Origin: Planctomycetota bacterium
GTDB lineage: Bacteria; Planctomycetota; UBA8108; SXIK01
Reading direction: 5' to 3'
Assembly: GCA_965223845.1 (NCBI GenBank)
Contig: CBDCXR010000004.1
Span: 3,328,001-3,392,000 of the forward strand
DNA length: 64,000 bases
Below are positions 1,553 through 40,989 of this stretch, one piece after another; position 1 is the stretch's first letter, and every line of letters begins with the position of its first letter. Both the position numbers and the translations under genes were made by a program. Under the pieces are notes generated by a model. The model was given only the letters and a program-made list of their open reading frames with translations, made no database searches and was not told the origin of the DNA.

Positions 1553-3847
1553 TTGGGAGTTCGGATCTTCAAGCTCGCCAAAGAGCTCGACATGACGAGC
1601 AAGGATCTCATCGCGTTCCTGCAGACGCAGGGTCGACCGGTGAAGAGCCATATGTCGACGATCGACGAGTCGGTGGCGAACATTCTGCGCGATCGTCTGC
1701 GACCGAAGTCTGCGCCGTCCGGGACGGGAAGTAGCGAGAAGAAAGCCGCGGGTGGAACCGCGAGATCGGGCACGCAGACCACCGGCTCCGACGCGTCCGC
1801 GGGCACCCGGGGACGGCCAGCTGCGGCTGCCGCTGCAGCCGGAGCCCCGGCAGCTCGGCGCGGCGGCACATCGGGCGACTCCGACGCCGGCGGAGACCGG
1901 GGGAAGGGGACCCAGCGGCGTGACGGCGGTCGCGAGCGGCGCGTTCGCATCTTCGTCCAGGACGGTGGCGTCGACGACGGCTACCTCCCGGGCGGGGGCC
2001 GACGCCGTCCGGTCGGGCGGCGACCGCGCCGGGGCGGGCGCGGAGGCGCTGCGGTCGCGGTGGAACGACCGAAGAGCGTCGAGATCACTCTCCCCGCAAC
2101 GGCCAAGGATCTCTCCGCGGCGACGACGATCCGCGTGAACGACATCGTGAAAACGCTCATGACGCACGGCCAGATGGTCCCGGCGAACGCGTTCCTCGAT
2201 GAAGATCAGATCACGCTCATCTGCCTCGAGTACGAGATCGACGTCACGTTTAAGAAAAAGGAACAAGAGAGCGCCGAGTTCCTCGAAGAGCTCTCGCAGC
2301 AGACCGTCGACGAGGCGGAACTCGAGCTGCGAGCGCCGGTCGTCACCTTCATGGGTCACGTCGACCACGGTAAGACATCGCTTCTCGATTACATCCGGAA
2401 GACGACCGTAACCGACTCCGAGGCCGGCGGGATCACCCAGCACCTCGGTGCCTACCGGGTCGACCACGGCGACTCGCACGTCGTCTTTATCGATACCCCG
2501 GGTCACCAGGCATTCACCGAGATGCGCGCTCGCGGCGCGAACGTCACCGATATCGCGGTGCTCGTCGTCGCGGCGGACGACGGCGTGAAGCCGCAGACGG
2601 TCGAGGCGTACAACCACGCGAAAGCCGCGGAAGTGCCGGTCGTCGTCGCGCTCAACAAGATCGATCGCCCCAACGCGAACGCGATGCGCGCGAAGCAGCA
2701 GCTCTCCGAGCTCGGTCTTCAGCCCGTCGAGTGGGGTGGTGACACCGAAGTCGTCGACGTCTCGGCGATCACCGGGCAGGGAATCGACTCGCTCGTCGAG
2801 ACGCTTTCCCTCACCGCGGAAATCCTCGAGCTCAAGGCGAACTCCCAACGAAGCGCTCTCGGCACGGTGATCGAGGCGGCGGCGACGACGAGCCGCGGGG
2901 TGGTCGCCACCATCCTCGTCCAGGACGGCACGCTGAAGAGAGGCGACTACGTCGTTTGCGGCGCCGCGCACGGCCGTGTGCGGAGCATGGTCGTGAACGG
3001 CGACGAGACGACGGAGACTGCCGGGCCGTCGACGCCGGTGCAGATCACGGGACTCAACGCCGCCCCGGCTGCGGGCGAGCGTCTCTACGCGGTCGAGGAT
3101 GCCAACAAGGCTCGCGACATCGCGGAGGAGCGCGAGCGAGAAGCTCGCGAGGAGGAACGAGCTCGCCGGCAGCAGAAGCCGGTCACCCTCGAAACTCTTT
3201 TCGACGAGATTCAGCAGAAGACCGAGGAGACGGTGCAGACGCTGGGCCTCATTCTCAAGGCGGACGTCCAAGGATCGAGCGAAGCTCTCCGCTCGTCGCT
3301 AGAGAACTTGTCGACCGACGAAGTGAAGGTCCAGATTCTCCACAGCGGGGTCGGCGGGGTGACGCAGGACGACGTATCGCTCGCCGACGCGTCGGGTGCC
3401 ATCGTGATCGGATTCCACGTGGGCGCCGACGAACGGGCCCGAGCGCTCGCCGAAGACCGCGGCGTCGAAATCCGGATCTATCAGATCATCTATGAGGCCA
3501 TCGCCGACGTGAAGGCGGCGATGGAGTCGCGCCTCCGACCGGAGTTCGAAGAAGAGATCCGCGGACACGCGGAGATTCGCCAAGTCTACCGCGCGTCCAA
3601 GATCGGAAATATCGCCGGCTGTTTCGTCACCGACGGCACGATTCAGCGCTCCGACAAGGTGCGCCTCCTCCGCGAGGGACGAATCGTCTACACGGGTGAC
3701 CTCGGATCGCTCAAGCGGTTCAAGGACGACGTCAAAGAGGTGCGCGAGGGCTTCGAGTGCGGTATCAAGATCGCGAAGTTCGACGATATCAAGGAAGGCG
3801 ATTCGATCGAAGCCTTCCACCTTATCGAGAAGCGACGGACGATTTAG
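1553..3847 (+). CDS. infB: Translation initiation factor IF-2 (TTG start)
   Basis: IF2_N (RIFKLAKEL), GTPase motifs [32 protein letters not shown]-terminal [12 protein letters not shown]...ECGI; AGGAG RBS before TTG. Confidence 0.98.
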
Positions 3848-3896
3848 AGACTCGGCCAGCGCGACGCGCTGGCCGAGTCTCTAAATCGATTTTCTT
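3840..3896 (+). terminator. Long perfect stem-loop plus T-rich tail overlapping the infB stop codon (intrinsic-terminator-like)
   Basis: CGATTTAGAGACTCGGCCAGCGCG (3840-3863) is the exact reverse complement of 3865-3888, followed by ATTTTCTT. Confidence 0.6.
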
Positions 3897-4652
3897 AGGG
3901 GTCTTTCGCGAAGACCCCTCGTCGTTCCGAAACCGGAACGACTTCACCCCAACGAGCTCGCCTCCGGCTCGGAATGCGACTCACCGCGCGAACTCGACGA
4001 CCCGCGACGCGCTCGCCGAGTCTCTAAATCGATTCTTTTAGGGGTCTTTCGCGAAGACCCCTCGTCGTTCCGAAACCGGAACGACTTCACCCCAACGAGA
4101 TCGCCTCCGGCTCGGAATGCGACTCACTGCGCGAACTCGACGACCCGCGTCGCGCTGGCCGAGTCTCTAAATCGATTTTCTTAGGGGTCTTTCGCGAAGA
4201 CCCCTCGTCGTTCCGAAACCGGAACGACTTCACCCCAACGAGCTCGCCTCCGGCTCGGAATGCGACTCACCGCGCGAACTCGACGACCCGCGACGCGCTC
4301 GCCGAGCCTCGACATCGATTTTCTTAGGGGTCTCTCGCGAAGACCCCTCGTCGGTCCGAAACCGGAACGACTTCACCCCAACGAGCTCGCCTCCGGCTCG
4401 GGATGCGACTCACCGCGCGAACTCGACGACCCGCGACGCGCTCGCCGAGCCTCTACATCGATTTTCTTAGGGGTCTTTCGCGAAAACCCCTCGTCGGTCC
4501 GAAACCGGAACGACTTCACCCCAACGAGATCGCCTCCGGCTCGGGACGCGACTCACCGCGCGCCGCACTCGCCAAGTCGCTGAATCGATTGTAGCGGCCT
4601 TTCGCGAGGACCCCTCGTCGGTCCGAAAGCGGAACGATTTCACCCCGACGAG
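3865..4652. repeat. Tandem array 1: 143-bp multi-hairpin unit, about 5.5 copies
   Basis: Unit starts at 3865, 4008, 4151, 4294, 4437 (exact 143-bp period) plus a shortened, degenerate copy from about 4564; no unique spacers. Confidence 0.95.
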
Positions 4653-4853
4653 CTTGTCTCTCCCCCCTCCGTCGGACGAACTCGCCCGCGGCTCGGAGCT
4701 CTCCTTCGCGGCTCCACCTCTTCCTTCGCGCCCTTCCCCAACCCTTCGTGTGAAATCCTCCCCGCGAGCTCGCCAGCCAGCTCCGGCCTTGCGACCCCAC
4801 CGCTCGGAGACGACACTCTTCTGGGTGTGACCCTCGACCCTTCGGAGAACCCC

Positions 4854-5234
4854 GTGCCCGATCATTCGCCCCGAACTTCGCGTCGGCTGCGCCGTATCGC
4901 GAGTCGAATGAAGTTCCTCCTCAGCCAAGTCCTCCAAAACGAAGTCAGCGACCCGCGCATCGGCTTTCTCACCGTGCTCGATGTCGAGCCGACAGTGGAT
5001 CTCAAAGAAGCGAAGGTCTACCTCTCGATTCTCGGCGGCGAAGGAGATCGCTCGAAGGCCGAACACGCTCTCGCGAGCGCACGCGGCTACATCCAACGCG
5101 AGGTTGGCAAGGGACTTGAAACGCGGAATACGCCTGTTCTACGATTCGTTTTCGATGACTCGAGGGACCAGGTAGCCCGCTTGGAATCCCTCATCGACGA
5201 GACCGCTCGAGAAGGCCGGGAGACTAAGGAATGA
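4854..5234 (+). CDS. rbfA: Ribosome-binding factor A
   Basis: R..RIAS....LSQVL..EVSDPRIGFLTV..VE.TVDLKEAKVYLS...ASARGYIQREVGK.LETRNTPVLRF.FD; canonical position after infB; GTG 4854 with GGAG upstream chosen as start. Confidence 0.93.
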   Translation: MPDHSPRTSRRLRRIASRMKFLLSQVLQNEVSDPRIGFLTVLDVEPTVDLKEAKVYLSILGGEGDRSKAEHALASARGYIQREVGKGLETRNTPVLRFVFDDSRDQVARLESLIDETAREGRETKE

Positions 5235-5767
5235 CTGCGGTGGAATGGGTGCTCGCGCCGGCCGATCTCGGGGCTTCGGATACCGATGCCGACGCATCGC
5301 TCGCTCTGCGGATGCGAGACGAAATCTTGTGGCGAGACGGCCGGTGCTGCGGTGAACCGGCGCTCGGACTGACGGGCGTGCCCGCCCGCGACTCGTTCGA
5401 CGTCGTTCAGGCTCGGGGCGACGACGAGGATGAAGAGGACGACGACTACTACGAGGAAGACGAGGACGACGACTTCGAGGACGAATTCGACGAAGGTGAC
5501 CTCGAGGACGATGACTACGAAGAGGACGACGAGGATTTCGACGACGACCTCGAAGAAGATGACGACGATCTAGACGACGACTTCGGTGATGTCGACGAAG
5601 AGGACGATCTAGACGACGAAGAGGACGATCTAGACGACGAGGAAGACGACGGAGACTTCGGCTTCGAGGACGACGAGGAAGACGACGAGGGCGAAGACGA
5701 CGACTTCGACTACGAAGAGGACGACGAAGAGGACGACGACTTCGAGTACGAAGAAGAAGACGAGTGA
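5231..5767 (+). CDS. Extremely acidic (Asp/Glu-rich) disordered protein
   Basis: ATGA overlap with the rbfA stop, AAGGA RBS; about 115 C-terminal residues are mostly D/E with host-like GAC/GAG codons; internal 21-bp tandem duplication at 5594-5635. Confidence 0.75.
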   Translation: MTAVEWVLAPADLGASDTDADASLALRMRDEILWRDGRCCGEPALGLTGVPARDSFDVVQARGDDEDEEDDDYYEEDEDDDFEDEFDEGDLEDDDYEEDDEDFDDDLEEDDDDLDDDFGDVDEEDDLDDEEDDLDDEEDDGDFGFEDDEEDDEGEDDDFDYEEDDEEDDDFEYEEEDE

Positions 5768-5956
5768 CTGCGTCCCGTCGTCGGTCGCTCGCTCGAGTTT
5801 ACTTCCCGGAGCGCGCTCACGGACGTCGAAAGCCCCCCGGCTGCCGCACCATGCGGAGCTCGGCCGAGCTCGAGTCTAGACCCCGCACAAAGGCGATTCC
5901 TCCGAACGACGCTCGTTTCGAGTGAACCGCGCGGCGTTTGAACTCGTGCTTGTGCG

Positions 5957-7354
5957 TCAGGGATACGACGCGACGCGGTTCTTACCCTGCCTCTTCGCCT
6001 TGAAGAGCGCGATGTCGGCCGACTGGAGGAGATCGTTCTCATCCTGATCGGCGAGGAGCGTGCTCACTCCCACACTCACGGTGACCGTCGTGCCGTCCTC
6101 CCCCTCGAGCTCGCTCACCGAGAAGGGATACCGCGCCACGGATTCGACGAGCTTGTCGGCGGCCTTACGGGCCATCGCGGCGTCGGTTTCCGGCAGCAGG
6201 ATGACGAACTCGTCGCCGCCGTAGCGACAGACAACGTCGGTCTCGCGGAAGGTTTCGGCCAAGACCGCCGCGATTTCCTTGAGAACCTGGTCGCCCTGGA
6301 GGTGACCGTGGGCGTCGTTCACCTGTTTGAAGCTGTCGAGGTCGACGAAGACGAGCGAAACGTCGCGTGCGTAGCGAATCGAGCGCTCGACCTCGGCGTG
6401 AAGACGCACCATGAACTGACGCCGGTTGAAGGTTCCGGTGAGCGGATCGATGATCGACTGGCGCTTGATCTCCCGGCTGAGGCGTAGGTTCTCGATGAGG
6501 AGGCCGATGATGTCGCCGAGCGCGCCGAGGAAGTCTTTCTGAAGCTCGCTCACGCGCCCCAGACTCGTGAAGTACTCTCTTTCCTGCTCGTACGGAAGGA
6601 CCTCGCAGAAGCCGAGCAGGTTCCCGTGGCAAGTCAATCGAACGATCATCCTCCCCTCGTGCTCCCCCACCGCCACGTCGCCGAAGAGAAACTCGCGGAG
6701 AACGGGCGTATCAGCGAGCGGAACCGGAACCGGTTCGACTTCGCGTGTCGAGTAGGCGACGCGGAGCTCGTCACCAGCGAGGAGATAGAACGTGACCTCG
6801 CGGTATCCGAGACTCGTCGTCTGCGTGAGAATGCGAGCGGCGTCGGCGAACAGCTCGTTCTCGTTGGCGGCGCCGAGAAGATCGCGCGTGATGACCGGCG
6901 TCCACTTGATCTTCTCGGATAGGTGATACACCCGGAGGGACGATTGGATCGCCGCGGACGCCCGTCCCTTCTGCTCCTCGACTTCGCGCCGCAACCGCTC
7001 GAGAACGGAGCTCTCGTGGCCGCAGTCACGGGCGTAGACGACGACGAGAGCACGCTGTTTCCAGCGCACTCGCCGGAACCGGAATTCAGCGGAGAGATCC
7101 TCACCGTGAGGACGCAAGATCTCGCCGGAGACGGTGAGGTCGAGCCCGGGTTCGTCTCGTTGAAGAAACGCGTCGACGACCGACGGCTCGATGACGCGGA
7201 CGATGCGCGACCAGTGCCAAGGCCGCTGCTCGAAATCGGTTACCGTCGCGTCGATGAGACGGAGAAACTGCTCGTTGAGGCCGAGGATCGTGCCGGATTC
7301 GGCGTCGCAGAACGCGGCGGGGAACGGGAGGCACGTTCCGAGGAGGAGGGCCAT
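5957..7354 (-). CDS. Diguanylate cyclase (PAS-like and GAF-like sensors + GGDEF)
   Basis: DPLTGTFNRR, FVDLDSFKQVND.HGH..GD.VL, I-site RETD, RYGGDEF, ADIALFKAKRQGKNRV; start uncertain (frame open to 7636). Confidence 0.9.
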   Translation of the reverse strand: MALLLGTCLPFPAAFCDAESGTILGLNEQFLRLIDATVTDFEQRPWHWSRIVRVIEPSVVDAFLQRDEPGLDLTVSGEILRPHGEDLSAEFRFRRVRWKQRALVVVYARDCGHESSVLERLRREVEEQKGRASAAIQSSLRVYHLSEKIKWTPVITRDLLGAANENELFADAARILTQTTSLGYREVTFYLLAGDELRVAYSTREVEPVPVPLADTPVLREFLFGDVAVGEHEGRMIVRLTCHGNLLGFCEVLPYEQEREYFTSLGRVSELQKDFLGALGDIIGLLIENLRLSREIKRQSIIDPLTGTFNRRQFMVRLHAEVERSIRYARDVSLVFVDLDSFKQVNDAHGHLQGDQVLKEIAAVLAETFRETDVVCRYGGDEFVILLPETDAAMARKAADKLVESVARYPFSVSELEGEDGTTVTVSVGVSTLLADQDENDLLQSADIALFKAKRQGKNRVASYP

Positions 7355-8203
7355 TTCGTCGCCGGTAAAGCACGACGACACCGCGAGCGGGAGATTCCCG
7401 TCGGAGACGACCGGGCCGGAGTGGAGTACGCTCGATTTCGCCTGGCTCAAGGTGCGCAACCCTCGATTCGTGGAGCGCAGCCACGGGGCCCGAGCAGCGG
7501 GAAGCGGGGACATCCCGCCGTGCCTCGCGGTTCGATTCTCGCGGAAGCCCACCGGCTGTCCGGCGGAGCTCGTGCGAGCCCGGAGAGTGCGCCGTCGAAG
7601 TATACCTCGGTGTTCGAAAGCTAGCCGCCCGCGCACGATGACTCCGAGTCGAGGACCCTCTCGTCGGCGTTTCGATCGGCCGGGATGGAAGAACGGAATC
7701 CCCGGGTATTCGCGGAAGTACGCGGCCCGCCGGGCGCGAACTCGCGTAGTTCTCGGCGGGATGAGTCTCGTTCGGGTAGTCCCGTTCGCGTCGGGAGTCG
7801 TGGGCCGGAACGACGTTTACGGCCCCGAGAGGGCGGTCTATAATGTCGAGCCCGAGTTCGGGCCGGGACGCGGCGGGGCGCTCCATCTCCTGCTCGAGTG
7901 ACCCTCGAAGTGGTCGACGGATGGCGTCGAAGGCGGTCGCGAGCTCGACGGAACGGCGGTCCAGACTTGACGTCGGGCGCTCGTCCGTCACGCGGCCGAA
8001 GACCGATCGCGACCGCTCCGACGCCGTCCGTCGACCGGCCTCGACTCCGCGAAGCGGACGTCACCGGCCTCGCCGTCGGCCCCCGAGCGGATCGACGCGC
8101 CGCTCCGCGGGATTCCGGGCGCTTCGATAGAACGGTCGCTTCGCTCTAGCGCGTCAGTTCGAGTTCGGTTTCGAGCTCGCCTCTCCCATCGACAGGACAG
8201 TCC

Positions 8204-8935
8204 GTGAAATCAGCCGACAAGATCTCCGCCGCAATCAAGGCGGCCGATAAGTCCGACGCGCACCGAACGACAAGCGTCGCATCCTACCCCGAGACGATCG
8301 TAGAAACCGTCGCGTTTCACCACCTGCACCGCGTGCTGCCCGCGAAGGACGCGCTGCGCAGCTTCCAGCGCTTGAGCGAAGAGTTCGTCGATTGGAACGA
8401 GGTGCGGGTGAGCACGATCAAAGAGATCCGGCAGCAGATCGCCGACGGTCCGGACTCGCTCGACACCGCGGTCTTCATCAAGGACTTCCTCGAGCACGTC
8501 TTCCGCGAACGCCACTCGGTAGATCTCGAGCCGCTCCGCGAAGCGAACATAACGGACGTCCGCAGGGCGCTGAAGCCCGTGCGCGGCATCGATCTCGCGA
8601 CGATCGAGCTCGTCCTTCTCCGCGTCAAATCGCATCCCGTGCTGCCGCTCAACCCGGAGATGGAGGCGCTCGTCGATGCGTCGGGCTTGGTCAAGACCGG
8701 GGATACGCGAGATCGAAAAGCGAAGGCGCTCTTCGAAAAGTGTGCGAGCGAGCGAGTGCTCCTCGTCCACCACTACCTTCTCGATCTCTCCCGTGCGATC
8801 GGACCGATCGAGGATGGTACGTTTAGCGGGGCGAAGACTCAGCTCAAGTCTGCATTGACGGCCCAGATCAAGGGGAGCGGGAAGCGCTCCTCCGGCGGGA
8901 CGAAGCCCAAGTCGAAGAAACCGTCGGCGGTCTAA
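8204..8935 (+). CDS. Endonuclease III / HhH-GPD-like protein, apparently degenerate
   Basis: FVDWNEVRVS motif, DLEPLR...L..VRGID helix-hairpin-helix-like segment; no Fe-S Cys cluster; AGGA RBS before GTG. Confidence 0.55.
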   Translation: MKSADKISAAIKAADKSDAHRTTSVASYPETIVETVAFHHLHRVLPAKDALRSFQRLSEEFVDWNEVRVSTIKEIRQQIADGPDSLDTAVFIKDFLEHVFRERHSVDLEPLREANITDVRRALKPVRGIDLATIELVLLRVKSHPVLPLNPEMEALVDASGLVKTGDTRDRKAKALFEKCASERVLLVHHYLLDLSRAIGPIEDGTFSGAKTQLKSALTAQIKGSGKRSSGGTKPKSKKPSAV

Positions 8936-9127
8936 CGACTAAGGCAGACTGCCCGTTGAAGAACTCATTCGGCCGAGAGCTCGGCGCGATCACGCTCAGC
9001 TTGGCCGCCCGAATCCTCGATAGTCACGGAGATCGTCCGCGTTCGCCGCAGCCGATCTGAACGCAACCGAGCCGGTTCTCGACTCGAAGCATCTTTTTCC
9101 ATCGGACGGCTAAGAGGTCACAACGAA

Positions 9128-26257: not shown

Positions 26258-26302
26258 CGGCGGGGAGGTCTCGGGTCTAGCTCGATGGATCGCCGGACGT
26301 CA

Positions 26303-32299: not shown

Positions 32300-32813
32300 C
32301 GCTCAACTCGCTTCGCGGCGGCGGGCTAGACCGCGCCGCCGGCTTCGTTCTCCGGTTTCAAACCGGTCCACGGACGTAGTTTCACCGCGCGGATCCGGCA
32401 AAACGCGCGGCCGGACCGCCCAACTCGGTCGGACGACGGCGCCGACCGATCGGGGCTCGGTTGTACCGCCGGCATTCGCGCGGCGCAACCGAGGGACATC
32501 CTCGCCCCACCGGCCGAAACCGCAGACCCGAGACCGGACTAACAGATGCCTGAACGAGCGCGGAGGCCTTTTCTCTTACGGATCGCTCCCTGTCGCCCTA
32601 TCATCGGCTCGATTCAGGCACTCGCGGGTGACGAGATGCCTGCACTCGAGACCTCCTTCCCGCCGGCCGGAGGATCTCCTTCGGAGAGTGCAGCCCCCCG
32701 GGGAAACGAGGCAGGATCGCCGCGTCAGCTCGCGGCCGGGGCACACTACGGGCAATCGTGGCTCGACACGTCTAAAGAATACCGATCGAAACCAAAACAG
32801 AGGGTGACTTCCG

Positions 32814-33479
32814 ATGAAGTTCGCGAGTTTACGAACTCGTCTCGTGGGTACGTCATGTTTGGTTGCGGCGAGCCTCGCCGCCCTCTCGCTCGACGTCGCT
32901 CCCGCCCGGGCCGCGCTCGTTCCGCTCGGCCTCAAGTCTCTCACGCAGAAATCCGACCTCGTCGTCACGGGGAGAGTCGTCGGCGCTCGGTCGTACCTCG
33001 GCTCCTACTACCATCTCGGCGAGATCGCCTACACGGACGTCACCATCGAGATCGATCAAGTCCTCCGCGGCGAGCTCGCCGAGCGCACGAAGACGATCGT
33101 CGTCCAGACCCGCGGCGGGGTGTTCACCGACTGGAAGCAGGTCTGGCCGGAGGAAGCCCGCTTCGAACGCGACGAGCGAGTGCTCCTGTTTCTCCGCCGG
33201 TCGAAGGACGCGCGCTCGGGGAACAAACTCCGCGCAACGGGCTGGCGTCAAGGGAAGTACCGTCTCTCGAAAGACGGGACGGTCGTCCTCGGGCAGTCGG
33301 ATCTACCGATCGGTCGGTCGACGCAGCTCTCCCGGGTGGAGCTTCAGATCGATCTCTACGCGGCGGCCAGCGCGTCGACGGCGGAGGGGAATGCGCCCGA
33401 CGCCGCGAGCGGCAGCACGAACACGATTGAATCGACTCGTTCTCGAGTCGATTCGGAGACGGGAGGGACGGAACGATGA
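32814..33479 (+). CDS. Secreted hypothetical protein (partner of the downstream matrixin)
   Basis: Signal peptide; L..L...SDLVVTGRV, GG......PEEARF..DERVLLFL, G..QGKY; ATGA overlap with the next gene. Confidence 0.7.
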   Translation: MKFASLRTRLVGTSCLVAASLAALSLDVAPARAALVPLGLKSLTQKSDLVVTGRVVGARSYLGSYYHLGEIAYTDVTIEIDQVLRGELAERTKTIVVQTRGGVFTDWKQVWPEEARFERDERVLLFLRRSKDARSGNKLRATGWRQGKYRLSKDGTVVLGQSDLPIGRSTQLSRVELQIDLYAAASASTAEGNAPDAASGSTNTIESTRSRVDSETGGTER

Positions 33480-35398
33480 TGCGCCCGCGCCGTCCGACTC
33501 GACTCCGCCACCGCCGGCGGACGATTCCGTTCGTCGCCGCGCTCGCGTCGGCACTCACCGTCATCGCGCTCGTGCCGGCATCGGCGTTCGAGGTGATCGG
33601 GAAGTGGGAGTTCAACGAGCTCCGCTTCCGCTTCAACCCGAACTTTCCCGCCGGCGAGGAAGACCTTCAAGAGCAGATCGTGCGCTGCGCGGCCGCGGTC
33701 TGGGAAGAGCAAACGGCGGCGCCGTTCACCTTCCGGTACCTCGGCCGGACCGCGATCGCGGAGCTCGATCGAACGGATGGGGTGAATGCGGTTTTCTTCG
33801 CGGACGTGGACGGCGACGGCGCGCTCGCGTCGACGGCGCTGATCGTCGAACGGACGACCGACACGGTGCGGTCGTTCGACATGATCTTCTACGGCTCGAC
33901 TCTCGACAAAGACATCGACTGGACGACGGCGAGCACACCGCCCCCTGGGACTCACGACATCGGCGGCGTCGCTACCCACGAGCTCGGTCACGGAGCCGGA
34001 CTCGACCACTCGGCGGTCCCGGCGTCGACGATGTTCGAGGCGACAGCCGGGAGCGGGATCCATCTCCGAACTCTCGATCCGGACGACATGGCCGGACTCG
34101 AATTTCTCTACGGCGCAGAGCCCGGGCACGAGGGGGCCGAGATCCGGATCACGTCACTCGACCCGAGCGGCGGCCCCGGACAAGGCGGCAACGAAGTGAT
34201 CGTGCGCGGCGCCAACTTCACCTACAGCATCGATACACGCGTCTTCGTCGACGGGCTCGCGGTCGACCGGTCCGATTGGGAGGTCGTCGCGTGCGACGAG
34301 ATCCGCATCGCGAGCATGCCTCCGGGACCGGAAGGACGTGTCGATCTCACCGTTCTCAACTCACTCGGTGAGACCACCCTCGCGGCCGCGTATCGCTACG
34401 GGGATCCCGCCCCGCTCATCACGGGGATCGATCCGAGCGAGAGCGGGATCGAGGGCGGAGTCGAGGTCACCGTCAACGGTCACGCGTTCACGGAGAACGC
34501 GGTCGTCGAGATCGACGGCCGTCCGCTCGAGGACCAGGTCTTCGTCGACGCCGAAACGATCATCGGCATGGTCCCCTCCGGCGAAGTTGGTGGGCTCGTC
34601 GACGTCACTCTGCGCCAGGAAGGTGACGTGAGCACGCTCTCCGAAGCGTTTTTCTACAATGCCTACCGGATCGTCATCGGCCAGTCGACGGCCGCTCCCG
34701 GTGAAACGAGCGTTCCCGTTCCCGTCTTCTCGTCGAGCCCCGACCCGCTGCAATCGCTCTCGTTCGTCATCGACTACGATCCGGCGGCGATCGCGCTCGA
34801 CTCGGTCTCGACCGCGCCGAGCGAAGCGATCACCGGCGAAGCGCCAGGATTCGCGCAGGCTAAGGTCGACTCGGAAACCGGTCTCGCGACGATCGGCGTC
34901 GTGTTTCGCTTGAGTGGCGAACCCGATCTTCCCGCGGGCGATGGCCTCCACTTCGCGGATCTGCTGTTCAGCGTCGCCGACGATGCCGCCGAGACCGAGC
35001 ACTCGATCACTCTCCTCGAGCGCGGTGGCTCGCCGGAGATCATCACGCTGGTCAACCCGAGCGTCGGCGGAACGTCCGAGGTCGCTCCGGTCCTCGAGGG
35101 CGGCTCCCTCACCGTCGCGGTCGCGACGGACCGGTTTATCCGCGGCGACTCAAACGGCGACGCCGACGTGAACGTCGCCGACGCCGTGTTCTCTCTCAAC
35201 CGTCTCTTCGGGGACGGGATTCCGCCGCCGTGCGCGAAGGCCGCCGACGCGAACGACGATGGCGACTTCAACATCGCCGACCCCATCCGCGTGTTGAACT
35301 TTCTTTTCGTCGATGCGATCGCGCTGCCGGCGCCGTATCCAAACGCCGGGAACGATCCGACCCCGGACGAGCTGACCTGCGAGAAGCCGCTTCCGTAG
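33476..35398 (+). CDS. Secreted matrixin (M10-like metzincin) with 2 IPT/TIG, cohesin-like and dockerin-like domains
   Basis: HELGHGAGLDHS zinc motif + STM Met-turn; ITS.DP..G...GG..V.V.G repeats; FVIDYDP cohesin-like segment; FIRGDSNGD...DANDDG duplicated Ca-binding loops. Confidence 0.85.
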   Translation: MMRPRRPTRLRHRRRTIPFVAALASALTVIALVPASAFEVIGKWEFNELRFRFNPNFPAGEEDLQEQIVRCAAAVWEEQTAAPFTFRYLGRTAIAELDRTDGVNAVFFADVDGDGALASTALIVERTTDTVRSFDMIFYGSTLDKDIDWTTASTPPPGTHDIGGVATHELGHGAGLDHSAVPASTMFEATAGSGIHLRTLDPDDMAGLEFLYGAEPGHEGAEIRITSLDPSGGPGQGGNEVIVRGANFTYSIDTRVFVDGLAVDRSDWEVVACDEIRIASMPPGPEGRVDLTVLNSLGETTLAAAYRYGDPAPLITGIDPSESGIEGGVEVTVNGHAFTENAVVEIDGRPLEDQVFVDAETIIGMVPSGEVGGLVDVTLRQEGDVSTLSEAFFYNAYRIVIGQSTAAPGETSVPVPVFSSSPDPLQSLSFVIDYDPAAIALDSVSTAPSEAITGEAPGFAQAKVDSETGLATIGVVFRLSGEPDLPAGDGLHFADLLFSVADDAAETEHSITLLERGGSPEIITLVNPSVGGTSEVAPVLEGGSLTVAVATDRFIRGDSNGDADVNVADAVFSLNRLFGDGIPPPCAKAADANDDGDFNIADPIRVLNFLFVDAIALPAPYPNAGNDPTPDELTCEKPLP

Positions 35399-35439
35399 CT
35401 CGCTGCCGCGCCTTGGATCAGGCCCGAACGGCGCGCCCC

Positions 35440-38400
35440 CTAACGCGCCGTAGAAGAGTCCGGCGAGAGAAGCGGGCTCGTCGGAGTCCCGCGTCCTCGC
35501 GGGCCGGCTCCGTCGTAGCCATCGAGGAACGTCCCCTCGACGACGCGCGTATTCCACTTCTCGCGGTAGGCTCGAGATTCCGGCGATGATGGATACGCTT
35601 CGCCGCCGGAGTAGGGATAGCTCGCCATCGCGCGGAAGGGGAGCGGCTCGACGCGCTCCGGGTGCGCGGTGTAGAGATCCGTGTCCTTACAGTAGCCGGA
35701 TGTCTTTGCGAAGAAGGTTCGCTTCCAGCCGTCGGGAAGGGGTGGGAGGTCGTCCGCGGGGAAGCGGAGTCGAATCCCGTCGCCGGGGCCAAAGATCACG
35801 AAGCGATCGTCGCTCTCCGCGAGGAGCTCGCGCACGTCCCCGAAGCGCGTGTAGGCGCCGGGGAAAACCTTGAAGGTCATGTTCGGGATCAACTCGCCGT
35901 GCCCGTAGATCTTGGGCCGCCGGCCGTCGGGAGATCGCTCGGGGATGAATCCGTGGAACTCGAGGTCGGCCACCCGAGCGGCGAGATCGTGCTCGACGAA
36001 CGTGGCCGCTCTATCCACACCCGCGAGGAACGCTTGATCCCAGTAGATCTCAAGGTTCGTGCGAACGCGGATCCTTCGGTCGCCGGGCTCGAGGAGTTCG
36101 GCGAAATCGACGCTCATGTAGCGCGGGTACCCCGCGGGAAAGCCCCAGTTCTCGCGCAGCGGCCGCCACGTGCCGTCTCGCTCGACTTCGAACGTCGGAA
36201 ACTCGAAGGCCGCGTTCGCCTGGGACGCGGCGAAGTTCGACGTCGAGTAGCCGTACTCGATATACCCGTAGAGAAAAAGATACGGAACGATTCCCGGCGA
36301 GCGGACGAGTGCGTCGAGCTCGTCGCCGAACTCGAGAACCACGCCGTGGGCCTCGCGCGCGAGCCCGGAAAAACGCTCGTCGAGACGGACCTCGTTCCCG
36401 TAGACGCGATCGACGTCGCGGAGACTCGCGGTAACGTCACGACCGCGGAGGTCGAACGCGCGCAGGGGGGTGAGCTGATCGCGAAACCCGAGCACCTGGA
36501 AACCGGGCGGAGGCGGCCCCGCGATCGCGAACATCTCGTCGGGAAGCACCGTGACGTCGCCGGGATGGTCGACGACCGTCAGCTTGAACTCATCGAGATA
36601 CGTGCACTCCTCGAGCGGCTCGAGGATCTCGAGGCGGTATTCCGCGCGCCCGTCCGCTCCCGGGACCTCCGCGAGCTCGGGAAGAAGTAGAAACTCCGTC
36701 GGGTCAGGGCGGTTGTACCGACCCGGCTCCTCGAAGTAGCCGATCCCGCCGACGCCCAGAAAGTCACCGGCGAACTCGTAACCGTCCTTCGTGAGTGCGA
36801 AGAGAATCGGGCACGACGAAGGCTTTCGCTCGACCTCGGGAATCTCGTAGCGCCGGTCGCCCGTGAGGCGGAGCTCCCCCTGAAGAATCCCGTCCGGCCA
36901 CAGGACTCGGACGTAGTCCGCGGAGTCCTCGCCGCCGAGACCGATACTCAGTCGAGGGGGCAGCCGCACGGTGCCGCCTCCGCCCGAGTCGAGCTGGACG
37001 ACCGCGCTGCGTTTGCCGGCGCGGACTTCGACCGTCGCGCCGCGTCCGGCGGTGTTCGCGCGCTCCTTTCCGGGGATCGGGGTCGTCGGCCCTTGAAGAT
37101 CGATCGTGAGCCACCGCGTCGTGAGGTCGAGCGGCCACGCGCGCACTCCCACGTGGCGATCGTAGACGACGAACTCGGGAGGACCGCTTTTCGCGATCGC
37201 GACGAGAGCTGCACTCGAGTCGTCCGCCGCGCGGACGTCTACGCTGAGGGTGTCCACCGCGACGAGGTCGGCCTCGGGGCTCGCGAGGAGCTCGGCCGGC
37301 CGAGTCGCGCCGGCGGGATCCACCGAAAGAAAGACGAGCTGCGGGGCGAGGACACCGAGCGCGTCGCCCGCCGCGGCGACGCGTGCGCCTTCGATCGTGC
37401 GCAGCTCGCGGAACCGGAGCTGCCCCTCATTCGCGATGAGCTTCACCGCCGTGTCGGTGAGAGCGACGAGGTCCGGATCGTCGTCGCCGTCGAGATTACA
37501 GGTGACGACGGACCGGAGTCCGGCGAGCGTCGGAATCCCGCTCGTCGCGGCATCGATCGCGCGGTACCGCCACACACGCTCGTTCGAGTACACCGTCGCA
37601 ACGCCGTCGCCGTCGAACACGATCAAATCTTGGTCGATGTCCCCGTCGAGATCGGAAACGACGAGCTCTCGAGCGGCAAAGGGAAGATCGCTCATCTCTT
37701 CGGAGGCGACATCGGTGAACGAGCCATCACGATTGTTGTTGAGGATCTCGATGCGGCTTCGGACGGCCCCCTCGACGCTTCGCTGGCGGAGGACGACGAT
37801 GTCGAGGTCCCAGTCGCTGTCGGCGTCGACGGGAATCACGCGCAGCGGAGTTCCCTTGAGCTCCGCACCGAGGTTCGACCGCATCTCACTGAACGTCGTT
37901 CCGTCGCTCGACCGGAAGAGGCGGAGCCCGTCGACCTCCCCCGCGATGATCTCCGGCCGCCGATCGCCGTCGAGATCTCCCGAGGCGCCGACCGTAGCAT
38001 CCGCAGCGATGACCGCAAGCTCGCGAAACGCTCCGTCGTCGCCGCGAGCCACGACGACGACTTCGGAGCCGCCGCCGGACTTCGCCGCACCGAACAGGAT
38101 CGTTTCGAGCTCGCCGTTTCGCGTAAGGTCATCGAAGCTCACCGCCGGCGCGATCGCACGACCATCCGGTGCGGTTCGAGCGATCGCTCGCCGCGTCGAG
38201 ACGACGACCGGAGCTCCGAACTTCGGCGTCCCCGGCGGCTTCCACGCAACGGGGGTCGGGTCCGTCCACCCGGGTGGAACCGTTCCGCGGAGCGCGAGCA
38301 TGTACCGCCCGCCCTCGCCGTACTTGATCCCGGGCTTGATCGCAGCGCCGGCATCTTCGAGTCGCTTGAACTCTTCGAGCGATGCGGCAATGCGGTCGCG

Positions 38401-38961
38401 TTTCTTCGTCTTTAGATACACCGTGCGAAGGCGGTAGTGCGCCGATGCAAGCGAGGGCTGGAGTCGCAAGCTCTCCTCGAGCGCCGCGCGGGCATCTTCG
38501 TAGCGCGCAAGCTCCATGAGCACGCTGCCGCGATAGTAATGGATGTACGGTTCGCGCGGATCCTTCGCGGCCGCGCGAGTGAACACGTCGAGGGCCTCAT
38601 CGAAGCGTTCGGTGTGGAGGTAGAGGATCCCGAGAGGAACGAGCGCGTGCGGCGTCTCCGGCTCGAGCTCGAGGGCCCGTTTGAACGCACGTTCCGCGAT
38701 CTCGAGATGTTCGTCCTGAATGTTCAGCGCAGCGAGACCGCGATTCACGTGCGCCGCGAGCCAATCGGGATGGCGATCGGCGAGTGCATCGAAAAACTGG
38801 AACGCGAGCAAGTAGTCGTAGCGCTCGAGATAGCCGATGCCGAGGTTCATCGCGCGCACCGAATCCTCCGGGACGTCGGGACCGCGAGTGCACGCCTGGA
38901 ACGCCAGTGCCCCTAGCGCGAGGAGTACGACGGAAACGATCGAGAGAAAGAATCGACGCAT
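35440..38961 (-). CDS. TPR + FG-GAP repeat + ASPIC/UnbV (CRTAC1-like) lipoprotein
   Basis: Lipobox FQA-C; TPR helices; D.D.D.D.D FG-GAP loops; NT.G.GA.VEV...GLG...VRVLWPDG..Q; KPSSCP. Confidence 0.85.
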   Translation of the reverse strand: MRRFFLSIVSVVLLALGALAFQACTRGPDVPEDSVRAMNLGIGYLERYDYLLAFQFFDALADRHPDWLAAHVNRGLAALNIQDEHLEIAERAFKRALELEPETPHALVPLGILYLHTERFDEALDVFTRAAAKDPREPYIHYYRGSVLMELARYEDARAALEESLRLQPSLASAHYRLRTVYLKTKKRDRIAASLEEFKRLEDAGAAIKPGIKYGEGGRYMLALRGTVPPGWTDPTPVAWKPPGTPKFGAPVVVSTRRAIARTAPDGRAIAPAVSFDDLTRNGELETILFGAAKSGGGSEVVVVARGDDGAFRELAVIAADATVGASGDLDGDRRPEIIAGEVDGLRLFRSSDGTTFSEMRSNLGAELKGTPLRVIPVDADSDWDLDIVVLRQRSVEGAVRSRIEILNNNRDGSFTDVASEEMSDLPFAARELVVSDLDGDIDQDLIVFDGDGVATVYSNERVWRYRAIDAATSGIPTLAGLRSVVTCNLDGDDDPDLVALTDTAVKLIANEGQLRFRELRTIEGARVAAAGDALGVLAPQLVFLSVDPAGATRPAELLASPEADLVAVDTLSVDVRAADDSSAALVAIAKSGPPEFVVYDRHVGVRAWPLDLTTRWLTIDLQGPTTPIPGKERANTAGRGATVEVRAGKRSAVVQLDSGGGGTVRLPPRLSIGLGGEDSADYVRVLWPDGILQGELRLTGDRRYEIPEVERKPSSCPILFALTKDGYEFAGDFLGVGGIGYFEEPGRYNRPDPTEFLLLPELAEVPGADGRAEYRLEILEPLEECTYLDEFKLTVVDHPGDVTVLPDEMFAIAGPPPPGFQVLGFRDQLTPLRAFDLRGRDVTASLRDVDRVYGNEVRLDERFSGLAREAHGVVLEFGDELDALVRSPGIVPYLFLYGYIEYGYSTSNFAASQANAAFEFPTFEVERDGTWRPLRENWGFPAGYPRYMSVDFAELLEPGDRRIRVRTNLEIYWDQAFLAGVDRAATFVEHDLAARVADLEFHGFIPERSPDGRRPKIYGHGELIPNMTFKVFPGAYTRFGDVRELLAESDDRFVIFGPGDGIRLRFPADDLPPLPDGWKRTFFAKTSGYCKDTDLYTAHPERVEPLPFRAMASYPYSGGEAYPSSPESRAYREKWNTRVVEGTFLDGYDGAGPRGRGTPTSPLLSPDSSTAR

Positions 38962-39627
38962 GATTCAGAACGTGGCTCCGGAGGACTAGGGGAAAAACTC
39001 GCCGCGGCCCGGGTCCGCGTCGCGCCTCGGAATCACGCAGCGACGCGCACGACGAACCACCGGAAGGCTAACCGATCCTCCCCGAACATCGGAGCCGAAC
39101 CGGGCGCGGCCGCTACCGCTCGCCCGCGCGGCGATGTCCCGCGATCGCCTCACGGCCGGGCGCGGACCCCCGGCTACCGCAAAACTACTGGCATGAGCCC
39201 CTGACGGGAGTACGATACGGAAACGGGAGGTATAGAACTGGTGAGAGTCGGCGGCTGACGACCGAGCGATCAGTCCGGTGCGTAGCTGTCGATGGACGAG
39301 TGTCCGGCGATTCGCCAGAGCTCGGGGAGACCTTCGGGACGAAGGGACTTCGAGCCGAAGACGGCGGCGCGCGCTCGGCGTTCGTCGCTGCGTGCGTGCG
39401 TTTGACGGCCGCGTCGAGGTCGGGCGAGCGCTCGGTGGGTGCGTAGTCATGCCGGTTTCCATCGACCGCCGGAACTCACTCCTCCGGCGGATCGAGTGAT
39501 TGCTCCGAGAGCCAAACCCTTGAGAGAGGACTGCGTCTTGGGTCGAGAACCGGACGGCTGGAGAGAGTGCGAGGCGGAGAGTTCGGCGGGAGACGCGACT
39601 CACGAACCGCTCAGTCCCGGAAGCGAG

Positions 39628-40356
39628 ATGCATGCTTCTCCATCGTCACCCGAGCTCGCGCGTCCGCGCGAGCCCGCCGGGAAGCGCGGCGATGGACCGC
39701 GCAACGACGATGAGAGTGCGTGCGACGTCGAGCCCTTCGACCGGATCGAGGACTCCGGTCTCGCCTTCGAATCCGACGAAGCGGAGTCACTCGTTTTCGC
39801 CGGAGACGCGCAGATCGTCGTCGAGCCGCGCCCGATCCCGTCGACGCTTCACTCCGCGTTCCTCGAACGGCCGTTCACGCACTGTACGATCTGTTCGCGC
39901 GCACTTCGCTCTCCGTCACCCCCGGGGAGCGAGGGACCCCCGGAGAGCGAGGGACCGCTCCTCTACGAGATCCAAAAGGTCTTTCGCGGCACGGAAGTCC
40001 TCTTCGAGATGGCGATCTGCCGTCACTGCAGTGACGCGATTTCCCGCGAGTTCTCCGAGGAATCATTGAACGCCATGAAGGGATTCCTCCTCGCGAACTT
40101 CCGTCCGAGTGGGGACGCCGCGACCTGCCATTTCTGTCGAGTCCCCGTCGATCTTCCCGGGCGCTGGACCGTCGTGGGCGCTTGCCATTCCGATCGACTC
40201 CTCTTCCCCGAGTTCGTCGCGTGCGAGCCGTGCACGGAGAGCCTTCAGCTTCAGCTGTCGCAGAAGACTCGGGACACTCAGGATGAGTTCATCCGCGACC
40301 ACTTCCCCGGCGTGCCCGCCGACATGGACGTGAGTCCGCGGGTCTTCGGGATCTGA
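39628..40356 (+). CDS. Hypothetical protein with four CxxC pairs (putative double zinc finger)
   Basis: CTIC, CRHC, CHFC, CEPC; host-like codon usage from about 39.7 kb; start uncertain. Confidence 0.65.
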   Translation: MHASPSSPELARPREPAGKRGDGPRNDDESACDVEPFDRIEDSGLAFESDEAESLVFAGDAQIVVEPRPIPSTLHSAFLERPFTHCTICSRALRSPSPPGSEGPPESEGPLLYEIQKVFRGTEVLFEMAICRHCSDAISREFSEESLNAMKGFLLANFRPSGDAATCHFCRVPVDLPGRWTVVGACHSDRLLFPEFVACEPCTESLQLQLSQKTRDTQDEFIRDHFPGVPADMDVSPRVFGI

Positions 40357-40411
40357 TTGAAAGTCCGACCAAGCGCGGAGCGCTTGGTCGGACTTTCAAT
40401 CAGATCTTTTT
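40350..40411 (+). terminator. 27-bp perfect stem-loop plus T5 tail overlapping the stop codon of the CxxC gene
   Basis: GATCTGATTGAAAGTCCGACCAAGCGC-GGA-GCGCTTGGTCGGACTTTCAATCAGATC-TTTTT. Confidence 0.65.
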
Positions 40412-40989
40412 AGGGGGCTTTCGCGAAGCCCCCTCGTCGCGGCGGAAAAGCCGCCGCGACTCACCCCGACGAGACCTCGCCTTCGGCTCGGGGGCGAACG
40501 GCTCGGGCGCGAGCGAGTCAGGCGCACATCCGCGCTTGGTCGGACTTTCAATCAGATCTTCTTAGGGGGCTTTCGCGAAGCCCCCTCGTCGCGGCGGAAA
40601 AGCCGCCGCGACTCACCCCGACGAGACCTCGCCTTCGGCTCGGGGGCGAACGGCTCGGGCGCGAGCGAGTCAGGCGCACATCCGCGCTTGGTCGGACTTT
40701 CAATCAGATCTTCTTAGGGGGCTTTCGCGAAGCCCCGCTTTCGCGAAGCCCCCTCGTCGCGGCGGAAAAGCCGCCGCGACTCACCCCAACGAGACCTCGC
40801 CTTCCGCTCGGGGGCGAACGGCTCGGGCGCGAGCGAGTCAGGCGCACATCCGCGCTTGGTCGGACTTTCAATCAGATCTTCCTAGGGGGCGTTCGCGAAG
40901 CCCCCTCGTCGCGGCGGAAATCCGCCGCGACTCACCCCGACGAGACCTCGCCTTCGGCTCGGGGGCGAACGGCTCGGGCGAGCCCGAGC
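40380..40989. repeat. Tandem array 2: 152-bp multi-hairpin unit, 4 copies
   Basis: Unit starts at 40380, 40532, 40684, 40852; third unit is 168 bp because of a 16-bp internal duplication GCTTTCGCGAAGCCCC; last copy truncated. Confidence 0.95.

What the first reader, a model, noticed from the sequence alone, without database searches (positions are those of the whole stretch)
3840..40989. Two distant tandem arrays are one structured element family with compensatory base changes
Seen: array 1 (3865-4652, 143 bp) and array 2 (40380-40989, 152 bp) differ in sequence but keep the same ordered scaffold. After TTCTT comes hairpin A: AGGGGTCTT-TCGCG-AAGACCCCT versus AGGGGGCTT-TCGCG-AAGCCCCCT (T-A to G-C swap, identical loop). 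After a single C comes hairpin B: GTCGTTCCG-AAAC-CGGAACGAC versus GTCGCGGCGG-AAAAG-CCGCCGCGAC (stem rewritten, pairing kept). An invariant linker TCACCCCRACGAG follows, then hairpin C: TCGCCTCCG-GCT-CGGAATGCGA versus TCGCCTTCG-GCT-CGGGGGCGA (same GCT loop). The linker can alternatively pair with CTCGT(CG) or with the GGGG arm, which suggests a switch or pseudoknot. Knowledge: covariation indicates selection on ssRNA/ssDNA structure, as in REP/BIME/REPIN elements or ncRNAs, but these units lack the GTAG REP tetramer and I cannot match them to a named family. Inference: a non-autonomous structured mobile element or a tandemly encoded small RNA whose enzyme (HUH/RAYT, RT or recombinase) lies outside this window.
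Basis: partly seen in the sequence, partly recalled or inferred. Interest (0 to 1): 0.85.

Follow-up and report, generated by a model that had tools for sequence, protein, structure and literature searches.

The report
Stop-codon-anchored hairpin repeat family
The two tandem arrays are local amplifications of one roughly 88-base, three-hairpin DNA repeat that sits directly behind the stop codons of housekeeping genes in a few scattered Planctomycetota genomes: a new family of a familiar kind of small selfish repeat, with an unusual habit of hugging stop codons.

Summary
Both arrays exist (143 bp x about 6 units; 152 bp x about 4) and share an ordered core: T-rich leader, hairpin P1, hairpin P2, linker TTCACCCC, hairpin P3.

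There are 49-52 copies at 24 loci in this genome. At least 28-96 matches occur in each of four other genomes from different families, one from another class. Nothing was found in most relatives searched, including same-family and same-genus genomes.

Base pairing covaries across genera (21 of 25 pairs). No Rfam family matches.

Copies point the same way as the upstream gene and start at or within a few bases of its stop codon. In this genome a 19-28-bp perfect hairpin plus T-run precedes the first copy. Its 3' arm is an inverted copy of the gene's stop codon and last 1-10 coding bases.

Array junctions differ from locus to locus, so arrays look like local duplications.

No RAYT, reverse transcriptase or IS91-type enzyme tracks the element. 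No wobble bias marks an RNA strand, and no RNA data exist. The proposed linker switch is not supported.

Best reading: a REP/MITE-like non-autonomous repeat that is co-transcribed as 3' UTR. This scan has noted similar stop-codon-hugging repeats in other Planctomycetota before.

The parts
1553..3847 (+). Upstream gene of array 1: translation initiation factor IF-2 (infB); stop TAG at 3845-3847
   Evidence: ORF list; Pfam IF-2 / GTP_EFTU_D2; the C-terminus RRTI* is shared with the G003 orthologue
3840..3888 (+). Long perfect hairpin (23-bp stem, 3-nt loop, apex CCAGCGC-gac-GCGCTGG). The 5' arm holds 5 coding bases plus the infB stop codon; the 3' arm is their inverted copy
   Evidence: Perfect-hairpin scan; terminator-like by scan; fold
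3889..3896 (+). T-rich leader ATTTTCTT (with the hairpin it forms a terminator-like site; also the 5' leader of the core)
3897..3919 (+).
3921..3942 (+). P2 (hairpin B) of unit 1: GTCGTTCCG-AAAC-CGGAACGAC; the covarying stem
3943..3956 (+). Conserved linker TTCACCCCAACGAG
3953..3971 (+). P3 region of unit 1 (CGAGC...GCTCG); the weakest and most variable helix
3860..4671 (+). Array 1: six cores at 3890-3975, 4033-4118, 4176-4261, 4319-4404, 4462-4547 and 4586-4671 (the last degenerate). Each unit is the 3' arm of the hairpin + leader + core + a locus-specific tail
   Evidence: TRF; nhmmer; CM; unit comparison
4827..5234 (+). Downstream gene of array 1: ribosome-binding factor A (rbfA), so the array interrupts nusA-infB-rbfA
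   Evidence: Pfam RBFA; NusA at 2-1438
39439..40356 (+). Upstream gene of array 2 (no Pfam family); stop TGA at 40354-40356; the C-terminus FGI* is shared with the G003 orthologue
40350..40406 (+). Long perfect hairpin (27-bp stem, 3-nt loop, apex CCAAGCGC-gga-GCGCTTGG) holding 4 coding bases plus the stop codon
40407..40494 (+). Unit 1 of array 2: leader TTTTT 40407-40411, P1 40412-40434, P2 40436-40460, linker 40461-40473, P3 region 40474-40494
40380..40980 (+). Array 2: four cores at 40405-40494, 40557-40646, 40709-40814 (with a 16-nt internal duplication at 40721-40752) and 40877-40965
   Evidence: TRF; CM

Best explanation
The arrays are locally amplified copies of a non-autonomous, hairpin-rich repeat of the REP/BIME/MITE kind. 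Its unit is a T-rich leader (often containing TAG or TGA), a G5/C5 hairpin P1, a covarying hairpin P2, the conserved single-stranded TTCACCCC, and a variable hairpin P3; about 88 nt in all. Shown: the family is dispersed and strand-specific. It sits at or just after the stop codon of a co-directional gene, it is high-copy in a few unrelated lineages, and it was not found in their close relatives. Inferred: it spreads as selfish DNA by an unidentified enzyme supplied in trans. It lands on or next to stop codons and brings its own stop codons, so insertion does not harm the gene. Once in place it is transcribed as 3' UTR and folds into very stable hairpins. In this genome and in G025 a second module sits between stop codon and core: a palindromic unit with apex CAAGCGC-nnn-GCGCTTG that also hugs stop codons. 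With the T-run this module looks like an intrinsic terminator. In this genome its 3' arm has been re-copied from the gene side, so the stem runs through the stop codon into the coding sequence. I attribute this to hairpin-templated strand switching during replication (quasi-palindrome correction). The tandem arrays arise afterwards by hairpin-promoted slippage or unequal exchange. Units near the gene stay homogeneous, while distal units decay.
For: Dispersal: 49 copies at 24 loci; 52 covariance-model matches. Patchy spread: strong in G016 (93 matches), G025 (89) and G037 (96), weak in 3 genomes, none in 34 of the 41 genomes searched. These counts are floors, because only 107 candidates per genome were scored. 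In a phylum sample, 4 of 151 genomes matched, including G134 of another class (28 of 29 scored candidates). The same-genus genome G012 and the same-family genomes G001-G003 gave no match. Structure: covariation. Placement: in this genome 16 of 24 loci have a co-directional ORF with GC3 of 0.79 or more ending at most 52 nt before the first core. A rough null from a proxy gene set gives 2.3% for random non-gene positions. In G016, 12 of 17 loci start -9 to +4 nt from the stop, and 3 more have only a partial copy in between. In G134, 6 loci with high-GC3 frames abut the stop directly and 4 do so through partial copies, out of 18 loci. The TAG of TAGGGGG is itself the stop in several copies (L109, L115, L134, L143). 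The native gene ends are kept: the RRTI* and FGI* termini occur in orthologues that have no element, and the S9 gene ends in SKR*. The long hairpins are element-specific. Seven of the 10 perfect hairpins with stems of 20 bp or more on the contig adjoin a core, as do all 8 GCGC-apex hairpins with 19 or more pairs. The stems include the stop codon plus 1-10 coding bases at 9 of 9 hairpin loci. The hairpin module is separable: the apex motif occurs 29 times in G025 against 1 for the control pattern, and only 3 strong plus 2 weak of 20 further sites carry a core. Arrays are local events: junctions lie in the loop, in the 5' arm or at the T-run depending on the locus. Identity is 0.94-1.0 within arrays but at most 0.90 between loci, and distal units are more diverged. 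Dispersal is recent in G037, where identity between loci reaches 0.97.
Against: No mobilising enzyme was found. Y1_Tnp hits are weak (22-43 bits), also present in the non-carrier G003, and not flanked by copies. Y2_Tnp occurs in 3 of 5 carriers and in 2 of 5 non-carriers or weak carriers. RVT_1 was not found in this genome or in G037. No target-site duplication or terminal inverted repeat could be defined. The only filled-versus-empty comparisons available were at about 70% identity, too diverged to place the ends. The fixed orientation and position relative to stop codons could equally reflect selection for an RNA-level role. The apex of P3 is often cUUCGg, a loop that is special in RNA and not in DNA (the property of the loop is recalled knowledge). 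The strand-switch origin of the 3' arm is inference only.
Confidence: 0.62

Rival explanations
1. The element is mainly a functional 3'-UTR RNA module, selected for its position at the stop codon. Candidate roles are an exonuclease barrier or mRNA stabiliser, a terminator or attenuator, or a brake on translation termination. Mobility would be secondary.
For: Copies always have the sense orientation and lie within a few bases of the stop. Upstream genes are often highly expressed housekeeping genes: IF-2, GroEL, PNPase, ribosomal protein S9, AccC, LeuA. The long hairpin plus T-run scores as terminator-like. Folds are very stable. Many P3 apices are cUUCGg. A stable hairpin 4-7 nt after a stop codon is the geometry reported to slow termination at REP elements (Liang, Rudd and Deutscher 2015; recalled, not seen here).
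Against: The element was not found in same-genus and same-family relatives that carry the same genes, so the genes do not need it. Partial, rearranged and amplified copies are common. G-T and A-C mismatches are balanced. Array 1 places a terminator-like site inside the nusA-infB-rbfA operon, which looks more like tolerated insertion than design. No expression data are available.
Confidence: 0.2
2. The element is a single-strand DNA transposon derivative of the IS200/IS605 or REP-RAYT type. A Y1 HUH transposase acting in trans would recognise the hairpins and insert 3' of a short target such as TGA(T) or TAG.
For: Conserved hairpins lie near the 5' end. Insertion is oriented immediately 3' of a short motif without duplication. 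All five genomes tested carry Y1_Tnp-like genes. CGTC-type REPs likewise have no flanking transposase (PMC3733652, passages read).
Against: The Y1-like genes score only 22-43 bits, encode 200-370 aa frames unlike canonical TnpA, also occur in the non-carrier G003, and have no copies beside them. Element orientation follows the gene and not an obvious replication direction (mixed strands along the contig). P1 and P3 do not resemble each other as IS200/IS605 ends do.
Confidence: 0.1
3. Each unit is a small RNA gene, and the arrays encode tandem unit-length RNAs of about 143 or 152 nt.
For: The structure is strong and covaries.
Against: No promoter-like sites were found. The spacers within units are locus-specific. 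Period ranges from about 66 to 165 nt between loci and genomes. There is no Rfam match. The distribution is typical of a repeat and not of a conserved gene.
Confidence: 0.04
4. The element is a retro-element product: copies are made by reverse transcription primed at the nicked sense strand behind the stop codon, and the T-rich leader is the complement of an RNA 3' tail.
For: The T-rich leader varies in length. Several partial copies keep the leader/P1 end and lack the P3 end, and they lie between the stop codon and a full copy.
Against: No RVT_1 match was found in this genome (0 candidates; 91.7% complete) or in G037, where copies are youngest. Leaders are not homopolymeric. Internal-deletion variants are also common, which fits slippage.
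Confidence: 0.03

Closest known systems
REP / BIME / REPIN elements with RAYT transposases (Enterobacteria, Pseudomonas; Bertels and Rainey 2011, PMC3116915, listing only; Di Nocera et al. 2013, PMC3733652, passages read)
   Same: Short GC-rich hairpin repeats between genes, in dozens to hundreds of copies. Stems covary, copies often cluster, the repeats are transcribed with the upstream gene, and they are patchy between species.
   Different: The unit here is about 88 nt with three different hairpins, not one 20-40-bp palindrome. It has no GTAG or CGTC tag. Clusters are direct head-to-tail arrays, not inverted doublets. Orientation is fixed relative to the upstream gene and the start lies on the stop codon. 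No RAYT gene is flanked by copies.
CGTC-tagged REPs (PMC3733652)
   Same: No dedicated transposase could be found beside the repeats (passages read). Some stem-B copies begin with CGTC.
   Different: As described there, CGTC REPs have 8-9-bp stems with A/T in the first positions, 4-5-nt loops and a CCA tail, and mostly form head-to-head dimers. None of this fits.
Bacterial MITEs such as Correia/NEMIS of Neisseria, RUP, ERIC (recalled)
   Same: Non-coding mobile repeats of 100-150 bp that fold into hairpins, sit at gene ends and can act as terminators or processing sites.
   Different: No terminal inverted repeats and no target-site duplication could be shown here. The strict sense orientation and stop-codon contact are not typical of these MITEs.
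MIRU-type dispersed minisatellites of mycobacteria (recalled)
   Same: Tandem 40-150-bp units at a few dozen intergenic loci inside operons, with copy number differing per locus.
   Different: MIRUs are not hairpin-dominated, and they carry short reading frames that bridge the flanking genes. That was not examined here.
Stop-codon-hugging hairpin repeats noted earlier in this scan in other Planctomycetota (e1-2144411, e1-4356798, e1-773241, e1-1157388, e1-979172; unchecked AI notes)
   Same: Same behaviour: hairpin-rich repeats of 100-140 nt in sense orientation on or just after stop codons, sometimes supplying the stop. One note describes a four-hairpin element with CTAG ends, like the hairpin module plus core seen here in G025.
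   Different: No sequence look-alike was returned for the one exact query from this family, the window stretch; a second query was a mistyped string, so its blank counts for nothing. Identity with those families is therefore not shown. The inverted copy of coding sequence in the hairpin arm is not mentioned in the lines I saw.

Membership tests
REP / REPIN (RAYT-associated) | Single 20-40-bp imperfect palindrome with a conserved GTAG (or CGTC) tetranucleotide at one end | tested here: not met
   The unit is about 88 nt with three distinct hairpins. It has no GTAG; CGTC occurs only by chance at the start of some P2 stems.
REP / REPIN (RAYT-associated) | A RAYT (Y1 HUH) gene flanked by copies of the repeat | tested here: not met
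   PF01797 hits are weak and are also present in the non-carrier G003. No copy with E below 0.1 lies within about 1.5 kb of six such genes in four carriers, and there are no matching inverted repeats.
REP / REPIN (RAYT-associated) | Copies arranged as inverted doublets (REPIN) or alternating units (BIME) | tested here: not met
   All clustered copies are direct, head to tail, on one strand.
MITE | Terminal inverted repeats and a direct target-site duplication | tested here: inconclusive
   No TIR between the leader/P1 end and the P3 end, and no duplication seen at flanks. The empty-site comparisons were too diverged (about 70% identity) to fix the ends.
IS200/IS605-derived PATE | Similar subterminal hairpins at both ends, insertion 3' of a fixed 4-5-nt target, TnpA(Y1) in the genome | tested here: inconclusive
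   Insertion directly 3' of stop codons fits, but P1 and P3 are unlike each other and only weak Y1-like genes are present.
Any Rfam family | Match at the family's gathering score | tested here: not met
   0 matches over the whole window at gathering thresholds. Only sub-threshold chance-level hits turned up in both arrays.
Intrinsic (Rho-independent) terminator (only the long hairpin plus T-run) | GC-rich stem-loop followed at once by a T-run on the sense strand | tested here: met
   The consensus scan calls both sites (3843-3885 and 40355-40401). Function in vivo is not testable here.
Retro-element product | A reverse transcriptase encoded in carrier genomes | tested here: not met
   RVT_1 gave 0 candidates in this genome and no match in G037.

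The most novel reading that the evidence does not exclude
Insertion may be mechanistically aimed at stop codons rather than filtered there by selection, which would be a targeting mode not described for bacterial mobile DNA. The same process, or a hairpin fold-back copying step tied to it, would re-template the distal arm of the accompanying palindrome from the gene's own last codons. That would produce perfect 19-28-bp stems that enclose the stop codon at a fixed 15-16-nt distance from the loop. This would make the many stop-codon-hugging repeats of Planctomycetota products of one undiscovered machinery.
Probability: 0.18. Interest if true: 0.75.

Novelty: new variant of a known kind. Interest (0 to 1): 0.5.

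Why it matters
The finding adds a well-defined, covarying, cross-genus repeat family to a phylum whose small repeats are barely described in print. It also documents two features that known REP/MITE biology does not explain. The first is near-exclusive, oriented placement on stop codons, roughly 30-fold or more above a rough random expectation. The second is palindromes whose far arm copies the gene's coding end. If the placement is mechanistic, it points to an unknown integration system. If it is selective, it points to a 3'-end RNA function at highly expressed genes such as infB, groEL, pnp and rpsI. On the practical side, the arrays break short-read assemblies and can be mistaken for sRNA genes.

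Tried and rejected
- RNAalifold on the plain MAFFT alignment recovered almost no structure (6 pairs) because indels in stem B were misplaced. I therefore gave the structure by hand.
- Wobble test for the transcribed strand: G-T 17 vs A-C 17 in this genome; mixed in other genomes (P1+P2: 28 G-T vs 51 A-C; P3: 15 vs 5). No usable signal.
- RNA evidence: no RNA holder is listed for this stretch. The four DNA runs laid are metagenome contigs that break inside array 1. They neither bridge nor size the array; short pieces match its units exactly.
- Enzyme hunt: PF01797, PF04986 and PF00078 show no association with carriers. I did not test IS110, TnpB, serine or tyrosine recombinases.
- A full-length 'master' element was sought through P1-only and linker-only matches in this genome. 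That search turned up only 5 extra partial or internal-deletion copies and chance linker matches.
- Variable parts of the hairpin arms were searched genome-wide: they are locus-unique.
- Filled-versus-empty comparison of G016 with the same-genus G012: the flanks align at only 70-73%, so no ends or duplications could be read.
- Idea that repeated 3' arms act as back-up terminator halves: in array 1 the arm copies are more diverged than the cores (8 of 92 vs 11 of 344 bases), while in two other arrays they are identical. No support.
- Papers: searches found no description of such elements in Planctomycetota. Only Creative-Commons PMC and bioRxiv were searched.
- Earlier-findings look-ups by sequence returned nothing. 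The query was not an exact copy of any stored locus, so its blank carries no weight.

Full report
1. OBSERVATION

Both arrays are present as described. Tandem Repeats Finder reports 3860-4562 (period 143, 4.9 copies, 95% matches) and 40380-40980 (period 152, 3.9 copies, 91% matches). The quoted hairpin sequences can be read. A unit of either array folds far more stably than shuffled sequence (z about -9.8; 0 of 200 shuffles). Rfam holds nothing like it: 0 matches at gathering thresholds over the window, and only chance-level sub-threshold hits in the arrays.

2. ONE FAMILY, MUCH LARGER THAN THE WINDOW

The window is G000:C4:3328001-3392000. A profile built from the two cores and iterated four times over the 7.93-Mb genome finds 49 copies at 24 loci.

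A covariance model (R1, built from 28 copies) finds 52 matches.

The shared core of about 88 nt has these parts, in order:
- a T-rich leader of 5-8 nt;
- P1, (G/A)AGGGGGC-loop-GCCCCCT(C), conserved in sequence;
- P2, a 9-11-bp stem whose sequence differs between loci while pairing is kept;
- the conserved TTCACCCC(R)ACGAG;
- P3, a variable hairpin often topped by CCTTCGG.

Covariation within this genome: 9 of 25 pairs have compensatory changes (5 of 9 in P2), and the covariation score is beaten by 0 of 500 shuffles.

Across 93 copies from three other genomes, 21 of 25 pairs covary, 82.6% of cells are paired against 74.1% in shuffles, and slid controls are far lower. That alignment was fitted to the model.

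His linker-CTCGTCG alternative is paired in 51% of cells, below the shuffled mean. The GGGG/CCCC alternative involves invariant columns.

3. DISTRIBUTION

Among 40 relatives, three genomes of other families in the same class or order give many matches: G016 93, G025 89, G037 96. Only 107 candidates were scored per genome, so these are floors. Three genomes give 1-2 weak matches and 34 give none. The genomes without a match include three of the same family (G001-G003) and G012, which shares its genus with G016.

In an even sample of the phylum, 4 of 151 genomes match: G000, G025, weak G021, and G134 of a different class, where 28 of 29 scored candidates match.

Between loci, identity is at most 0.90 in this genome but reaches 0.97 in G037. 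High copy number in a few scattered lineages, with no match in their close kin, is the pattern of a selfish or mobile repeat and not of a conserved RNA gene.

4. PLACEMENT

This genome:
- 16 of 24 loci have a co-directional ORF with GC3 of 0.79 or more ending at most 52 nt before the first core.
- The rest are mostly degenerate copies.
- A rough null from a proxy gene set gives 2.3% (60 nt or less) and 0.6% (15 nt or less) for random non-gene positions and orientations.
- The upstream genes include IF-2, GroEL, PNPase, ribosomal protein S9, biotin carboxylase, LeuA, an OmpA-family protein and a response regulator.
- Array 1 lies between infB and rbfA, downstream of nusA, that is, inside a conserved operon.

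Other genomes:
- G016: 12 of 17 loci begin -9 to +4 nt from the stop codon of a long open frame, and 3 more have only a partial copy in between.
- G134: 6 loci with GC3 of 0.94 or more abut the stop directly and 4 do so through partial copies, out of 18 loci fetched.
- In several copies the TAG of the leader/P1 junction (T-TAG-GGGG) is the gene's stop codon (L109, L115, L134, L143).
- In G021 one copy follows a tRNA gene.

All copies point the same way as the upstream gene.

5. THE LONG HAIRPIN

At 9 loci of this genome the first core is preceded by a perfect or near-perfect hairpin of 19-28 bp plus a T-run.

Seven of the 10 perfect hairpins with stems of 20 bp or more on the whole contig adjoin a core. 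All 8 GCGC-apex hairpins with 19 or more pairs do so.

The 5' arm contains the stop codon and 1-10 upstream coding bases. The distance from stop codon to loop is 15-16 nt at 8 of the 9 loci.

The apex (C)AAGCGC-nnn-GCGCTT(G) is shared between loci and with G025.

Orthologues in relatives without the element end in the same residues: RRTI* for IF-2 and FGI* for the second gene, with unrelated sequence after the stop. The coding end is therefore native, and the 3' arm is an inverted copy of it.

In G025 the same module is a family of its own, cTAG-(G)CCC(G)AAT-CAAGCGCG-nnn-CGCGCTTG-...-CTAG:
- its arms are imperfect and its 5' TAG or TAA serves as the stop codon;
- the apex motif occurs 29 times in G025 against 1 for the reversed control, 0 times in G016, G021 and G037, and 5 times in this genome, all at element loci;
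- of 20 further G025 sites, only 3 carry a strong and 2 a weak R1 core.

The hairpin module and the core are therefore separable elements that both sit on stop codons and nest, with the hairpin nearer the gene.

Both window hairpins score as terminator-like.

6. HOW THE ARRAYS FORM

The repeat unit of each array is the core plus locus-specific flanks. The junction lies in a different place at each locus:
- in or beside the hairpin loop (arrays 1 and 2; C4:6959732);
- just after the stop codon (C4:268125);
- at the T-run (C4:2857646; C4:3432804).

This argues for local duplication and not for a site-specific nick.

Gene-proximal units are nearly identical, while distal units are diverged or truncated. 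Partial copies, 16-nt stutters and internal deletions between short repeats are common around P1. That is what hairpin-stalled replication slippage produces.

7. MECHANISM: WHAT IS SHOWN AND WHAT IS NOT

Shown: structure under selection or recent common descent with compensatory change; dispersal; patchiness; orientation; stop-codon contact; native gene ends; separable modules; locus-specific amplification.

Not shown:
- The enzyme. Y1_Tnp-like genes are weak matches, are present in a non-carrier, and are not flanked by copies. Y2_Tnp does not track carriers. RVT_1 was not found in this genome or in G037.
- The strand or molecule that folds. G-T and A-C mismatches are balanced.
- Expression. 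No RNA holder is listed. Short-read contigs of the likely source samples stop at the array edges.

I commit to a non-autonomous REP/MITE-like repeat that lands on stop codons, carries its own stop codons, is co-transcribed, and is later amplified by slippage (0.62). The main rival is a primarily functional 3'-UTR module (0.2). The inverted copying of the coding end is best explained by hairpin-templated strand switching, but that is inference.

8. COMPARISON AND NOVELTY

The element works like REP/BIME or MITE elements but fails their membership tests: no GTAG/CGTC-type single palindrome, no inverted doublets, no flanking RAYT, and no TIR or TSD demonstrable. Like the CGTC REPs of Di Nocera et al. 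(PMC3733652; passages read), it has no visible transposase.

Four full-text searches found no description of such elements in Planctomycetota.

Within this scan, several earlier notes report other stop-codon-hugging hairpin repeats in Planctomycetota. The phenomenon is therefore recurrent in the phylum, and this is one more family, possibly related to the four-hairpin, CTAG-ended element of note e1-2144411.

I rate it a new variant of a known kind, with moderate interest (0.5). The stop-codon targeting and the coding-end palindromes remain unexplained.

Noticed in passing
window 3848-4826: The conserved nusA-infB-rbfA gene order is interrupted by about 980 nt of hairpin plus array. Relatives have roughly 50-100 nt between infB and rbfA. 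How rbfA is expressed behind a terminator-like site is open.
   Followed up: partly
L134-L138 (G134), directly 3' of the element: Long tandem arrays of a 7-nt unit (GGTCTCG-like) start right after the element's 3' end at four or more loci. Earlier scan notes describe similar heptamer arrays in other phyla.
   Followed up: no
L116 (G016), about 47 nt before the core: A 16-nt unit made of the gene's TGA stop, the leader and the first half of P1 is repeated four times head to tail.
   Followed up: no
L034 (G021), around position 1575: One copy begins 8 nt after the CCA end of a tRNA gene rather than after a protein stop codon.
   Followed up: no
G000:C4:5094911 (+) and 1332916 (-): P1-like hairpins are followed by different downstream hairpins, suggesting sister families that share P1.
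   Followed up: no
G000:C4:5879434-5880537 and 4624407-4625330: Two paralogous proteins of about 300-370 aa have a weak Y1_Tnp match and a shared C-terminal motif FPAGTYWMRVFHRQ. Similar genes occur in carriers and in a non-carrier.
   Followed up: partly
window 5419-5763: Dense 9-48-nt tandem periodicities rich in GAC/GAA lie inside the ORF 5231-5767 downstream of rbfA: an acidic low-complexity tail with no Pfam family.
   Followed up: no
G000:C4:2727200-2727365: Behind the S9 gene copy lie two further units that fuse the first half of P1 directly to the linker and P3. This internal-deletion variant has itself been amplified.
   Followed up: no
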